In this document: in pieces, positions 4,260 to 25,500 of the stretch | Layout: the number at the start of each line of letters is the position of its first letter | How positions within the stretch are numbered: the stretch's first letter is position 1 | Assembly: GCA_965113315.1 (NCBI GenBank) | Contig: OZ220375.1 | Source: Podarcis vaucheri | Taxonomy: Eukaryota | Strand: one strand, 5' to 3' | Length of the DNA: 64,000 nt | Made by a program: the position numbers

Positions 4260-6357
4260 CCAAGGAAGTTTGTCACTAAGCTCTATGGCTCATTGCAGTC
4301 CTGAGTAAGATGATGAAAAGGGGAAGAGCACTAAAGGGAGAGAAATAAAGCGCAAAGCCAGGGCCAGAGAAAAATCGTGCACTCTAGTGAGGTTGAAGAG
4401 GGGGAGAAATGCAGGCAACCCAGAGAGGAGGGCCAGAGCCCCTTTCCTGCAGTGTCCATCTCTCGGTGACCTCCTCCTCTTTGGAGTATTTGGATTTTCT
4501 GAGCAAGCCAGCCCCCCGCATTCACCCTCCCGCCGGTAAATTATTTAAGCCCCACTCTTGATCCATAGCCACGGGAACAGAAGGCTTCAGGCCTCGGGAT
4601 TCTCATGGACACTCCAGAAAGTGCAAACTTTAGTGCAACACCACCTGTGAGATGCCTCCTGTGTTATACTTGTTCCAATGCATTTGACCGCCTTTGTTTT
4701 CTTTTTCCTTTTTTTTGGCATTACCTTATTTTTTTTCTTTTTCTTCTCTATATATTTTTTAAAAAATAAACGAACATACAAGCTAACCCCAAGCATCCCT
4801 GGTGCGTCTCTATAGGATGGAAGGGATGGGCGAGCGGGGACGTCGGACAGAACCAGGCGAGCCGAAAGGAGTGGGCGCCGGAGACAGGCGCAGTCCAGCA
4901 ATGCTGTTCAGGCTGTGGGACTTCTCATAGCCTGTTGGAAGCGCTGTGGGGAAAGGAGAGAAGTGAAAGGGGTGAACAGGGGAAGAGGAACACAGGTCAA
5001 GTTATGGCCCTGACTCTCTCACAGTAGGGACTCTGGCACTAGCAACCATAGCAGTATGCTAGAGGAGGGAGCTGCCCTCTGCTACACTTCATATGCCTGA
5101 TATACTAGATTCTTGGTCCTCTTAGCTCAGCACTGGCCACATCTGGAGATTTGTTGATGGCTTCATACATTCAATGAAGCTGTACCTGCGCACTGTGGCC
5201 TGGTGCTTCTCTTTCAACCTTCCCTTCATGCCCTGGGATTTGGCAAAGATTTTGCTTTTACCAAAAGTTCCCTATTAGGTCTGAAGCAAGGAACTTTGTC
5301 TTGACGCTGATTAACAAACCAAGATAATTTTGGCTGAGCAAATCCCAGCTTGTTAAATGACATTAAGCCAAATTTATGAAGGTTTATGAAGCCGCTGGCT
5401 GATGTTCAAACATAGCCACTGTCTTACTCTAATTGCCAGCAGTTCTCCAAGGTTTCAAGCCGAGGTCTTTCTCAGACTTGCCACTTGAAAATTAAAGGAA
5501 TTGAATCTGGGGTGTTCTGCACACAGTGCTTGTGCTCTGCCGCTGAACTATAACCCTTCCCCAGTGCTGCTGCTCTAGATTGCTAGAGGGCAGAGTTGTA
5601 GCTATCAGCTCAGCAAGCTTCAGATGCCACATGCGGACAAAATGTCCCAGAAAGCTGTGCAAAGCCGCCAACCCTGGTTTGGGTTCCTTGGGCTGTCAGT
5701 CAGCCTGTGCCTGCCTGCTTCTCATACCACCATTCCTGACCATCTCCCAAATCAATGTTACCTTCTACAACCAGTCTCAGGCTCAACCTTCCATGTTGAA
5801 CTTGGAAACATTATCCCACAATCATAGTTCTAAGCCAAAGCATTCCTTAACTGGAAGCTCTGTGGCCTCAGTCTTGAAGAGCATGAGCTGTTAGCTGAAA
5901 CTGAACTTGCTGAGGGCCAAACTAGACGTGACCTTAAATGGATGCCTCTTTGCATTTAACATTCAGCCTTAAAAAACAAAGCAAAACTCTTAGCATCAGC
6001 TGGAGGGAGCTGATCATGTTTAGAACCACAGCAGCTGTGGAGGGAGGGGGAATCCTGCATCTGAAACTGGTACTGTACCGCACTGTGAAGAAATCTCCCA
6101 TTTGCCCCAGTTTCTTCTTCCTGCAAAGATCAGCTTCAAAGGAACACTTTCTGTCAAGACCACAGCAAAGGAGGAAAAGGTTAAACTTTCCCTCCCTGCT
6201 TGGTAATGATATTGATAATTATTAGCCCCTGCCCCCAGTAGTGGCTGTTTTGCATTTTTGAAACCCAAAAAGACACATTAAGTATCACGGCTATTTTGGC
6301 CGTTAAGAATCTGCCTTGGCAAGCCATTGTTTCTTCTCATCCTATAATAAAGGGATG

Positions 6358-6401
<44 letters not shown>

Positions 6402-22500: not shown

Positions 22501-25500
22501 TCATCACAACTAGTCACTGAAAATAAGGTAGTCTAGTCTTTGCTGCTGTTGTTTCCTTCAAAATGGTAGCTTCAGGAATGTGAAGAGCACCTACAGTCAT
22601 TGTGGGACAGAATGATACAAGTAAGGGAGAAAACATGGAAGGAGATGGGGGACTGACACAAAGCAAGGGCTGACCAAAAAAGCATCTATTTGTTGAGTGG
22701 ATGTGATAATGGAGCTGGGTGTGTGTGCAGGGAACATAACACAGGACTGAGCTGGTAATCTCGGAGGTCATGAAAATCACAGGAAGCAACTGGGAACGCT
22801 GGAAGGGGAGGACCTCCTTCTCCCTCCCCAATTTGAACCCAAATTGCTCAAGATCAATTGTGCTGGCGGGTTGCCAATTGAAAAGAAGCACTAGAGGGCG
22901 CTGTTCTTGGAACGATGGATGCTGTTGCTATGGTAGCAAAGATGGGCAAGTTGAGGCCTTCCAGTTGCTAGGGCATCATCTGCCTCATTTTAATTTGTCA
23001 TGACCTTTTAACCCTCATGACAGGGTTATATTTAAACAAAGTACACATTAGCAGTTGCCTTTTTTTACCTCAGAAATGTGGCAATTTGAGGTTTTGCTGT
23101 GACAAGGGTTATGGAGGTGGTGGTGATGTGGGGAAGGGAGATGTCGTACTTGGACTACTTGTTTAGATGCTCTTGCGAAAGAGGCAGGGCAAAAATTATG
23201 CACATGGATGTACCTTTTCGGATGTTCCCATCAGGTGACTGACCAAAGTCACCTGTGGAGAGGAGAAAGCAGGCTCGGTCACGGTTGTAGCGTTCCCGAC
23301 CGCCAGGTGTGACAGGTGACTTCTCCTCAGGTGACAGGGCCTGGTCTATGGTGGGGCAGTCCTCATTAGCCAATGCTGCATTTGCTGCATCACCATTCTG
23401 CTTGGAATCTGTGAACGGATAAGGGAAAGGGGTGAGATTGAAAAAAAGAGAAGTGACGCAGAAGTAAGAAGAAACTGAGGCTTTTTAATAGTACCTTTGC
23501 ACCTTCCCCAGAATTCCCAGCTCAAAAAACAGACAAAAAACAAAACAACCACCTAGCTACCTTTCTCATCCTGAGATACAACAAATACTTTTTGGGAGTG
23601 TGGATGGAGCAAATTCTTAGGCAAACACAAATTTGCTTGTCTATAATCAAATCAATATTCTTCTAGCAGAAATACTTTACACCATTTAATCGTAATGAAT
23701 GCTGCTGTAAGTTTTTTAAGTACGTACTCTGCAAATCAGATGTACATTACTGAATCGAGCAAGTTGATGCTTTGCATAATTGCCTTAAAATATATAAATG
23801 ATGATCAATGTCCAAAGTGTAGAAATAAAATTTCAAAAAATCTTGCTAGATTTAAACTGTTTTGAAAACTTCGGGTCAGCTAAACCTTTCTGAGAAAATG
23901 AACTTTGGACTTTCCTCCACTTGCTATTATTATATTTGGGCCACATTCAAGTTCAGTTGATGTAAATTGATTACCTATTTCGCTACCCTTTTGTACTCAC
24001 ATTAAGATTTGCTCAAGCAAATGGGTAAAAAGAAGAAACTGTTGTCTCTGTTAACATGTGATTATGAGGATTCTTGTAATATGTGGAGTGTCGCTTGCGA
24101 TAGGAATAGTGATTCCCTCCTTAAGGGAAACTTGGGAGTTGTATTATGTGGAAGAACTAGGAACCTCTTACAAAACATTTCTCAGGTTCTGTGAAGAAAA
24201 TCATAGATTAAATAAATGCGTAGTGCAGAAGTGTTCTGAAAGAAAGCAGCTACAAAATGGCATTATTTATTTTTAGCACAGTTCGTTATTCAAACTGAAA
24301 ACATAGTAAGTAGCTCATACACTTGTTGTGGCTACCAAGTAAAAATGTACAGATAAAGAACATTTGGGTTTGGAGGGGTTTTTTTAGGTTTTCATTCCTA
24401 GAGTTAAAATAGCCTGAAATAATATCCATTTTGTGATGGCCTTTTGATATGTGAATATCAAGAGCTGCTATCCCTTAATAAAAGCATCTTTGTGGTCCTC
24501 ATTTAAGATAATGCTCCATATCAAGCCTCTCAGTTTTGATCAAACAACTTTGAGAAGGGGAGTTCTCCCCCTCTGATAACGACGCCTATCATTTGATCAG
24601 TAGAACTGGTGACGTTATTGTAGGTTAACATAGATAATTATATCTTATCTTGTGAGGCAATTATTCTAGAAAGGGGGACAGGGTCGCCCCTGCAGAGAAC
24701 AGTTTTTCTGAGAGAGAAAGGCTTCATGAAATTGTGGAACAATATTGCAGACAGGAGGGAGCTTTACTGCATACAAAATAAAGGACTGAAAAACTCCCTT
24801 GCTGGCATGGTGCAGCCTTTAATTTCAAAAAAATGACATTAAAAACAAAATTTCAGAAAGGTCATGGGAAACTATTGAAGGTGATGTGTCTTTCATGCTA
24901 GTGATGTCACAGGCAAACTTATCCACCAGGTTCCTATTACACTGCACAATCAAATTTCACACACTACAGACGGAAAAATCACATGTTCCCAATATCACAA
25001 TAATGGTGTTTGAGTGCTGGCAAAATCATGTGCTGAAACAAATAATGTTTGTGGTTTTTTTTAAAAGATTTCTGGAAGAATCCTGTGTAACTAATAATCA
25101 ACACCTGCATGTGTATTGAACACGGGTCATCCACCCCAAACCCAGTCATCTGATAAACTCCTAAATTTAATCCCATTGCTTCTTAGCCTCTTTTCTAGCA
25201 AATAGGATGAACAACTGCTCCTGCTCTTTCTGACATTTTTTAATACTTGGCAATTGTTGCATATACTCTTCTCCCCCCGATCTTTCCCCCTAGGTTAGTG
25301 AATTTCATATTGCTGCCCTCAGGGACTTTTTCCGCACTGATTTGTTGGCTGAGTAAACGTTGCACATCTCCGTGGAATCCCCGCATGTCGCAAAAGATTT
25401 CTAGGAACAGTTTGAAAACCACAGCTCTAGGCTAAACATACTCAGTTCCTTTACCCTTTCCTGGCATGATTTGTCTTCTTGACCCTTTCGCGTCTTTCTA

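What the first reader, a model, noticed from the sequence alone, without database searches (positions are those of the whole stretch)
4810..23408. Combinatorial array of phase-1 alternative C-terminal exons for Kv3.3
After exon 3 (ends RK G|, phase 1), the 18-kb region holds at least five exon-like segments, all entered in phase 1: 15842, 14153, 10491, 8934/8894 and 4943/4931. Predicted proteins are 608 aa (..WKHE), 588 aa (..APTA), 581 aa (ALITA) and 616/620 aa (..PSIL), plus forms with in-frame inserts. Each internal stop lies close to its downstream donor (23, 5 and 42 nt), inside the ~50-nt window that escapes NMD, which suggests selection for productive isoforms. C-terminal splicing is known to control Kv3 targeting and modulation. 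Several of these choices are not ones I recognise from mammals.
Basis: partly seen in the sequence, partly recalled or inferred. Interest (0 to 1): 0.7.

Follow-up and report, generated by a model that had tools for sequence, protein, structure and literature searches.

The report
Known Kv3.3 tail-exon switch, lizard copy
This is the 3' end of a lizard or snake Kv3.3 potassium-channel gene, and it carries the already known choice between two alternative protein tails; one or two further small conserved exons have an unknown role, and the rest of the proposed "array" is no more than chance.

Summary
The window is a squamate KCNC3 (Kv3.3) gene on the minus strand, not human.

- **Already known or annotated:**
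  - Exon 14153-14033 (..WKHE) is the squamate version of the vertebrate-wide "W-type" tail exon.
  - Exon 4943/4931-4810 is the "PSIL" tail exon.
  - This switch was described for zebrafish kcnc3a and rat Kcnc3 (PMC2933717) and is annotated in related squamates (Pogona X1, Hemicordylus X1, Sceloporus X4).
- **Conserved, role open:** the 43-nt exon 10491-10449 is identical at protein level in Anolis sagrei and Lerista gene models.
- **Conserved island, not a coding insert:** 8934/8894-8836 lies in a ~180-nt conserved island, but an indel breaks the in-frame reading.
- **No support:** 15842.

Exon-like acceptor/donor pairs are as frequent on the antisense strand and in the other introns. "Phase 1" follows from exon 3 alone, and the NMD-escape argument is trivial for 43- and 59-nt exons. 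Verdict: partly supported, mostly already known. No transcript data could be consulted.

The parts
47669..48268 (-). Kv3.3 exon 1 coding part (ATG at 48268; 600 nt; N-terminal peptide plus T1/BTB domain); donor GTGAGT
   Evidence: Pfam BTB_2 at 5.7e-29 and the Shal-type N-terminal model at 5.1e-10.
32625..33558 (-). Exon 2 (934 nt; S1-S6 and pore); leaves in phase 1; donor GTAAGG
   Evidence: Pfam Ion_trans at 1.2e-47. 83.5-93.9% identical to eight squamate proteins.
23214..23408 (-). Exon 3 (195 nt; proximal C-terminus); phase 1 in and out; weak donor AAG|GTACAT
   Evidence: 100% identical over 64 residues to Hemicordylus, Thamnophis, Euleptes, Sceloporus, Phrynosoma and Anolis sagrei proteins.
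14033..14153 (-). W-type alternative tail exon (121 nt). The phase-1 reading ends ..WKHE, with stop TAG at 14058-14056, 23 nt before donor GTGAGT; this gives the 608-aa form
   Evidence: 32 of 32 residues identical to the end of Pogona vitticeps isoform X1. Aligns with W-type tails of turtle, amphibians, Polypterus and teleosts. The exon plus about 100 nt upstream is conserved in Lerista and the king cobra.
10449..10491 (-). 43-nt conserved exon. The phase-1 reading is GSTLYSRNAPTA then stop (TGA 10456-10454), 5 nt before donor CAG|GTACGT; this gives the 588-aa form if spliced directly to exon 3
   Evidence: 12 of 12 residues identical to the end of Anolis sagrei isoform X2. 14 of 14 identical in phase 0 to Lerista edwardsae P0126.
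4810..4943 (-). Terminal coding exon with tandem acceptors 12 nt apart (4943 gives ALPTGYEKS.., 620 aa; 4931 gives GYEKS.., 616 aa); ends ..PSIL, stop TAG 4812-4810
   Evidence: 43 of 44 residues identical to the Hemicordylus and Euleptes X1 tails and 38 of 40 to Sceloporus X4. 39 of 120 listed Kv3.3-like hits end in P[SA]IL.
8836..8934 (-). Candidate cassette with acceptors 8934 (99 nt, open in phase 1) and 8894 (59 nt, ALITA then stop at 8880-8878) and donor GTCAGC at 8835. It lies inside a conserved island of about 180 nt (about 8976-8797)
   Evidence: The only database relative is an unnamed read-through ORF, P0128 (1 hit among 18 candidates). The island is 35 of 42 residues identical against about 25% in the rest of the alignment, and a frame-shifting indel lies inside the segment. 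It is in no annotated protein found.
10827..10914 (-).
   Evidence: It matches a piece of the Lerista P0126 model at 17 of 30 residues, E 3.9e-5. Acceptor score 8.7. The inferred length differs from Lerista (88 against 86 nt), so the frame is not kept.
15700..15842 (-).
   Evidence: No hit from any tail. The representative search of the overlapping ORF gave two weak hits elsewhere in the ORF. The Anolis sagrei extra cassette could not be placed here.

Best explanation
The region is the last intron and terminal exon of a squamate KCNC3 (Kv3.3) gene on the minus strand.

**The main switch.** After exon 3 the pre-mRNA has one well-supported choice.
- Skipping straight to the terminal exon gives a tail ending ..PSIL. 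A 12-nt tandem acceptor choice (4943 or 4931) makes this 620 or 616 aa.
- Including the 121-nt cassette 14153-14033 ends the protein at ..WKHE (608 aa), with the stop 23 nt before the cassette's donor.
- This is the vertebrate-wide 'W-type versus PSIL' switch of Kv3.3. In published work the two tails did not change gating in oocytes, and the C-terminus is linked to subcellular targeting.

**The other segments.**
- The 43-nt exon 10491-10449 is conserved and appears in two gene models from other squamates. It may give a short ..APTA tail, travel as an untranslated exon behind the W-type stop, or act as a decay-triggering exon.
- 8934/8894-8836 is a conserved DNA island that may be a stop-bearing cassette or a splicing-regulatory element. 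It is not a conserved in-frame coding insert.
- 15842 is most likely a chance AG with an open frame.

**Shown:** sequence anatomy, homology, and annotation in relatives. **Inferred:** that these splices occur in this species, and every functional consequence.
For: **Gene identity:**; synteny and misnaming per PMC10241522 (passages).

**W-type exon**
- 32 of 32 residues identical to the Pogona X1 tail.
- It aligns with 15 W-type tails from turtle to teleosts, with one invariant W and the shared ..NAN..W motif.
- At least 13 of 120 listed hits end W-type and 39 of 120 end P[SA]IL.
- The 23 nt after the stop and the donor are conserved in Anolis sagrei, Lerista and the cobra, as seen through the alternative-frame translations. 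So the exon is internal in those species too.

**Literature:** zebrafish kcnc3a gives WIKP or PSIL tails that are aligned with rat Kcnc3 variants, with no gating difference (PMC2933717, passages).

**Tandem acceptor:** 620-aa forms (Hemicordylus X1, Euleptes X1) and 616-aa forms (Thamnophis, Sceloporus X4) are annotated.

**43-nt exon**
- 12 of 12 and 14 of 14 residues identical in two different frames in two species.
- Exon X in the same Lerista protein is only 17 of 30 identical, and the core exons 1-2 are 83.5-93.9% identical across squamates.

**Chance control:**
Against: - No transcript data for this or any squamate could be consulted. Annotated isoforms in relatives are computer predictions.
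They show DNA conservation and perhaps an exon chain, not a real protein.
- The species behind the 8934 island relative (P0128) is unknown, so its distance from the window species cannot be calibrated.
Isoforms that use 15842 or 8934/8894 could therefore be hidden.
- The splice-site matrix is recalled, approximate, and scored the genuine 14153 acceptor poorly (-3.9).
Confidence: 0.75

Rival explanations
1. One reading: at least five alternative exons form a combinatorial set of productive C-terminal isoforms, with stop positions selected to escape nonsense-mediated decay.
For: - All frames, stops and distances are as stated.
- Three of the five segments are conserved or annotated elsewhere.
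- 8934-8836 lies in a conserved island.
Against: - Exon-like pairs and stops within 50 nt of the donor are as common on the antisense strand and in other introns.
- 43-nt and 59-nt exons cannot place a stop further than 50 nt from their donor.
- 15842 is unsupported.
- An indel breaks the in-frame 8934 reading in the one relative.
- The frames used by the Anolis sagrei X2 and Lerista models are closed or unreachable in this window. Inferred exon lengths differ between species (88 against 86 nt for exon X).
- If the Lerista chain (W-type exon, X, 43-nt exon, terminal exon) reflects a transcript, the W-type stop would lie 23+88+43 = 154 nt before the last junction in this window. That is outside the escape zone.
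Confidence: 0.1
2. The small conserved stop-bearing cassettes (10491-10449, perhaps 8894-8836 and exon X) are regulatory exons. They would be untranslated or decay-triggering exons that tune Kv3.3 mRNA level or the W-type/PSIL ratio, rather than coding for tails.
For: - The 43-nt exon keeps identical translations in two different frames in two species. That suggests constraint on the nucleotides rather than on one reading frame.
- The 8934 island extends about 40 nt beyond both proposed splice sites and tolerates a frame-shifting indel.
- KCNC3 is listed among human synaptic genes with developmentally regulated skipped-exon NMD events (PMC13078869, one passage; the exon itself would be in supplements I could not open).
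Against: - Spliced singly between exon 3 and the terminal exon, their stops lie 5 and 42 nt from the last junction. By the usual 50-55-nt rule (recalled), that does not trigger decay.
- There is no expression data.
- The human event may be unrelated.
Confidence: 0.3
3. Only the W-type and PSIL exons are real. The 43-nt element and the 8934 island are conserved intronic elements (for instance splicing enhancers or silencers controlling that switch) which gene predictors have wrongly turned into exons.
For: - The Lerista and cobra models are clearly imperfect: they start inside an intron, and the cobra model reads exon 3 out of frame.
- The Phrynosoma tail found no significant match in the window.
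- Pseudo-exons are at chance density.
Against: - The 43-nt element has an acceptor and a strong CAG|GTACGT donor exactly at the boundaries used by two independent models.
- One of those is an NCBI isoform model (Anolis sagrei X2).
Confidence: 0.25

Closest known systems
Zebrafish kcnc3a and rat Kcnc3 alternative C-termini ('WIKP' and 'PSIL' variants; Mock et al. 2010, PMC2933717; passages read)
   Same: - Same gene family member.
- Same exon order: proximal C-terminal exon, then two distal C-terminal exons, as listed for kcnc3a.
- One tail with the ..NAN..W.. motif and one ending PSIL.
   Different: - The squamate W-type tail is shorter, with a 6-residue gap, and ends WKHE.
- Expression in squamates is not shown here.
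- The fish paper does not describe a 43-nt exon.
NCBI-predicted squamate isoforms: Pogona vitticeps X1 (599 aa), Hemicordylus capensis X1 (620 aa), Sceloporus undulatus X4 (616 aa), Anolis sagrei X2 (652 aa)
   Same: They use the same W-type exon, the same tandem acceptors of the PSIL exon, and (Anolis sagrei X2) the same 43-nt exon, with 90-100% identical peptides.
   Different: - They are named KCNC1-like.
- Anolis sagrei X2 enters the W-type exon in another frame through an extra 24-residue cassette that I could not place in this window.
- None of them contains 15842 or 8934/8894.
Kv3.1a/Kv3.1b C-terminal splice variants (as described in PMC6218699 and PMC7887315; passages)
   Same: - Alternative C-terminal exons that leave gating unchanged.
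- They alter axon/dendrite targeting and add a PKC phosphorylation site.
   Different: This is a paralogous gene, and its tails were not compared here.
Alternative-splicing-coupled NMD exons in neuronal genes, KCNC3 among the host genes (PMC13078869; one passage)
   Same: Short cassettes that bring in a stop codon.
   Different: In this window the stops lie 5 and 42 nt from the next junction when the cassettes are used singly. NMD sensitivity was not tested, and the human exon's identity was not seen (supplements closed).

Membership tests
Kv3 (Shaw-related, KCNC) channel gene, KCNC3 orthologue | T1/BTB tetramerisation domain followed by a six-TM ion-transport domain | tested here: met
   Pfam BTB_2 at 5.7e-29 in exon 1; Ion_trans at 1.2e-47 and Ion_trans_2 at 7.8e-11 in exon 2.
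Kv3 (Shaw-related, KCNC) channel gene, KCNC3 orthologue | Closest relatives are KCNC3 rather than KCNC1/2/4 | tested here: met
   - With exon 3 as query, the best named non-squamate amniote hits are KCNC3 of alligator, turtles and echidna.
- The squamate and amphibian hits, and one top-ranked cyprinid hit (P0004), are named KCNC1-like. PMC10241522 reports this misnaming for avian KCNC3 loci.
- No tree was built.
Kv3 (Shaw-related, KCNC) channel gene, KCNC3 orthologue | Upstream synteny with NAPSA | tested here: inconclusive
   Two ORFs with the Pfam Asp domain lie at 60381-60689 and 62284-62715, on the same strand and upstream. I did not show that this protease is NAPSA rather than another pepsin-like gene.
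Kv3.3 W-type / PSIL alternative C-terminal splicing | A W-type tail exon lying between the proximal C-terminal exon and the PSIL exon | tested here: met
   14153-14033 lies between 23214 and 4943. It aligns with W-type tails of 15 species.
Kv3.3 W-type / PSIL alternative C-terminal splicing | A terminal exon ending ..PSIL | tested here: met
   4931-4810.
Kv3.3 W-type / PSIL alternative C-terminal splicing | Both mRNAs are expressed | not testable with these tools
There are only predicted isoforms in related species.
NMD-coupled (poison) cassette exon | Conserved cassette that introduces a premature stop | tested here: met
   10491-10449 and 8894-8836 carry phase-1 stops. Conservation.
NMD-coupled (poison) cassette exon | The stop lies more than about 50-55 nt upstream of the last exon junction (rule recalled) | tested here: not met
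   The distances are 5 nt and 42 nt when each cassette is spliced singly to the terminal exon. The rule would be met only for multi-cassette chains.
NMD-coupled (poison) cassette exon | The transcript is stabilised when NMD is blocked | not testable with these tools
   This needs an experiment.
C-terminal PDZ-ligand tail | Free C-terminus of the form S/T-x-hydrophobic (class I, recalled) | tested here: met
   - The protein ends S-I-L.
[quoted passage not shown]
- Binding was not tested.

The most novel reading that the evidence does not exclude
Squamate Kv3.3 has, besides the ancient W-type/PSIL switch, one or two deeply conserved micro-cassettes: the 43-nt exon 10491-10449 and perhaps 8894-8836. 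Their inclusion would cut the channel off just after exon 3. That removes both the W motif and the PSIL (PDZ-type) end, or marks the mRNA for decay in multi-cassette chains. This would be a third, 'tail-less or dosage' state of the switch, constrained at the nucleotide level rather than in one reading frame.
Probability: 0.25. Interest if true: 0.4.

Novelty: already known. Interest (0 to 1): 0.2.

Why it matters
In the papers read, Kv3 C-terminal variants change where the channel is placed in the neuron and how it is modulated, not how it gates. Showing that the lizard gene keeps the fish-to-mammal W-type/PSIL switch adds a data point, but it is expected. It also supports treating the 'KCNC1-like' squamate loci as KCNC3. 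The only part that could teach something new is the 43-nt exon and the 8934 island. If they are spliced, they would give tail-less channels or a decay-coupled control of Kv3.3 dosage. That is relevant because KCNC3 is named among human genes with NMD-coupled exons.

Tried and rejected
1. **Anolis sagrei cassette at 15869-15797.** I first thought the extra 24-residue cassette of Anolis sagrei X2 was the homologue of this stretch, because of a shared three-residue start. A local-alignment scan of all three frames of the intron put its best scores elsewhere: 35 near 5991, with 15869 not among the top 12, against 30 for the antisense control. I dropped the idea.
2. **Representative-library search around 15842.** A search with the 166-aa ORF at 15408-15905 gave only two weak hits (E 4.9e-7 and 5.8e-4) to query residues 89-135 and 64-145, away from the candidate exon. 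I did not fetch them.
3. **Pfam.** There were no hits for the ORFs around 8934 and 15842 or for exon 3.
4. **Rfam.** The whole window gave no RNA family in the last intron.
5. **Rbfox-type TGCATG motif (motif recalled).**
   - The whole window has 107 copies against 58 expected, on both strands.
   - About 11 lie on the sense strand of the last intron, one inside the W-type exon and one about 130 nt after the 43-nt exon.
   - That is not above the window-wide density, so I used no argument from it.
6. **Weak tail-like matches.** Matches at 10362-10270 (best E 0.008) and a 7-residue exact match at 9785-9765 (E about 0.8) were taken as chance.
7. **Other species' tails.** The Phrynosoma and alligator short tails found no significant match in the window.
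8. **Cluster look-up.** The look-up for hidden isoforms could not be made.
9. **Poly(A) hexamers.** Some lie after each candidate (13860, 10024-10010, 7853, 3561-3326), but they are too common to argue from.

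
Full report
**What the window is.** The window has no N. A four-part potassium-channel gene lies on the minus strand.
- Exon 1 coding part: 48268-47669.
- Exon 2: 33558-32625.
- Exon 3: 23408-23214.
- A terminal coding exon ending at 4810.
- Pfam finds BTB_2 and the Shal-type N-terminal model in exon 1, and Ion_trans in exon 2.

**Which gene and which animal.**
- With exon 3 alone as query, 143 of 171 candidate proteins scored E <= 0.001 and the best 120 were listed.
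- Six squamates are 100% identical over the 64 residues: Hemicordylus, Thamnophis, Euleptes, Sceloporus, Phrynosoma and Anolis sagrei. Alligator is 88%, turtles 70-84% and echidna 81%.
- I therefore take the window for a squamate reptile, not human.
- The squamate proteins are named 'KCNC1-like'. PMC10241522 (passages) states that avian KCNC3 loci are often mis-named this way in NCBI, and that upstream synteny with NAPSA identifies KCNC3.
- Two ORFs with the aspartyl-protease domain lie upstream on the same strand.
- Across exons 1 and 2 the window is 83.5-93.9% identical to each of eight squamate proteins, so it is none of those species.

**The observation.**
- Exon 3 is 195 nt, entered and left in phase 1.
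- All seven acceptor positions follow an AG.
- Exon limits, stops and donors are as follows:
  - 14153-14033: 121 nt, stop 14058-14056, donor GTGAGT, 23 nt between stop and donor.
  - 10491-10449: 43 nt, stop 10456-10454, donor GTACGT, 5 nt.
  - 8934 or 8894 to 8836: 99 or 59 nt, stop 8880-8878 in the short form, donor GTCAGC, 42 nt.
  - 4943 or 4931 to the stop at 4812-4810.
- Product lengths of 616/620, 608, 588 and 581 aa follow by arithmetic from the exon lengths.
- I did not build or search a joined spliced model. Each exon was translated and searched on its own, and the joined step was left out.

**Is it more than chance?**
- The splice-site weight matrix I used has frequencies recalled from memory and is crude. 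It gives the genuine 14153 acceptor only -3.9.
- At cut-offs set by the weaker candidates, the last intron has 11 exon-like acceptor/donor pairs on the sense strand. The antisense strand has 18. The two strands of introns 2 and 1 have 9, 4, 8 and 12. Block shuffles give 5.5 +/- 2.6.
- The 11 include 10491-10449 and a pair starting at 10914. They do not include 8934/8894, whose donor fell just under the cut-off, or 14153. They also include six unrelated places.
- A phase-1 stop within 50 nt of the donor is seen in 4 of 11 sense and 4 of 18 antisense pairs.
- At cut-offs that admit 14153 there are 261 sense and 256 antisense pairs.
- 'Phase 1' is fixed by exon 3. A 43-nt or 59-nt exon cannot hold a stop further than 50 nt from its donor.
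- So the listed features do not by themselves distinguish the segments from pseudo-exons.

**What conservation and annotation say.**
- *14153-14033.* Its phase-1 peptide is identical (32 of 32) to the end of Pogona vitticeps isoform X1.
  - It aligns with the W-type tails of a turtle, three amphibians, Polypterus and nine teleosts.
  - At least 13 of the 120 listed proteins end this way and 39 of 120 end P[SA]IL.
- *The switch is published.* Mock et al. 2010 (PMC2933717; passages) cloned zebrafish kcnc3a with 'WIKP' or 'PSIL' ends and aligned them with rat Kcnc3 variants. They found no difference in gating. So this exon is the known partner of the PSIL exon, not a novelty.
- *4943/4931.* Both forms are annotated: 620 aa in Hemicordylus X1 and Euleptes X1, and 616 aa in Thamnophis and Sceloporus X4.
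- *10491-10449.* Anolis sagrei isoform X2 ends with the same 12 residues (12 of 12).
  - A Lerista edwardsae 'hypothetical protein' reads the same exon in another frame with 14 of 14 identical residues, then continues into the 4943 acceptor.
The 43-nt exon is therefore clearly better kept than its neighbour.
- *8934/8894-8836.* The only relative found (1 hit among 18 candidates) is an unnamed 201-aa read-through ORF.
  - The stretch from about 8976 to 8851 is 35 of 42 residues identical, against about 25% in the rest of the alignment.
  - Similarity then continues in another frame, 16 of 18 by eye.
  - So there is an indel inside the segment, and the island runs past both proposed splice sites.
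  - This fits a conserved non-coding or stop-bearing element, not a conserved 33-residue insert.
- *15842.* Nothing matched it.

**Combinatorics.**
- The per-exon phase table shows that, from exon 3, only 8934-8836 can be inserted and still reach ..PSIL in this window.
- The frames used by Anolis sagrei X2 and by the Lerista model enter the W-type exon in phase 0. They cannot be reached here. The two possible upstream cassettes are 73 and 46 nt and leave in phase 2, and the 73-nt one stops at once.
- Exon X is 88 nt here against an inferred 86 nt in Lerista.
- The coding combinations are thus not conserved between species. That argues against an array of productive modules.
- If the Lerista chain reflects a real transcript, the W-type stop would sit 154 nt before the last junction in this window, outside the escape zone.

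**How it most likely works.**
- Inclusion or skipping of the W-type cassette decides between a ..WKHE end and a ..PSIL end. A 12-nt tandem acceptor adds or drops four residues before GYEKS.
- C-terminal splicing of Kv3 channels is reported to affect targeting and phosphorylation rather than gating (PMC6218699 and PMC7887315, passages).
- The 43-nt exon is probably a real minor exon, but its role is open. KCNC3 is named among human genes with NMD-coupled skipped exons (PMC13078869, one passage).

**What stayed unchecked.**
- No RNA-seq and no squamate genome DNA were available.
- The cluster look-up that might have shown further predicted isoforms could not be made.
- Searches for print on squamate Kv3.3 splicing ('KCNC3' + 'Anolis' + 'alternative splicing') found 0 papers in the held library.
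- The older primary papers on Kv3.3 variants are not held.

**Verdict.** Interest is low.

Noticed in passing
window 32815-32928 (-): Full-length Rfam match to RF00485 K_chan_RES (potassium channel RNA editing signal), 103.7 bits against a gathering score of 51, inside Kv3.3 exon 2. It may mark a conserved A-to-I editing hairpin in the pore/S6 coding region.
   Followed up: no
window 60381-60689 (-) and 62284-62715 (-): Two exon-sized ORFs with the eukaryotic aspartyl-protease domain (Pfam Asp, 1.3e-12 and 2.1e-9) lie upstream of the channel gene on the same strand. This fits the NAPSA-KCNC3 synteny described in PMC10241522.
   Followed up: partly
It has the strongest acceptor score of the intron (8.7) and matches a piece of a Lerista gene model at 17 of 30 residues.
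   Followed up: partly
window 14154-14390 (-): The pyrimidine-rich sequence directly upstream of the W-type exon is conserved in Lerista (about 130 nt) and the king cobra (about 240 nt), as seen through read-through translations. This is typical of regulated alternative exons.
   Followed up: partly
whole window: TGCATG occurs 107 times against 58 +/- 7.8 expected from shuffles, on both strands. Much of the excess probably comes from CA/TG-rich repeats, for example around 36-37 kb and 52-54 kb.
   Followed up: no
window 31351-31698 (+): A 115-aa ORF in intron 2 looks, from memory, like the C-terminal part of a CR1-type LINE protein. It has no Pfam hit.
   Followed up: no
window 48300-50200: A GC-rich, strongly CT/GA-skewed stretch just upstream of the start codon holds very long low-complexity ORFs on both strands. 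It is probably the 5'UTR/promoter region.
   Followed up: no
window 10270-10362 (-) and 9765-9785 (-): Weak resemblances to the PSIL-exon peptide: best E 0.008, and a 7-residue exact match at E about 0.8. I took them as chance, but a decayed duplicate of the terminal exon is not excluded.
   Followed up: no
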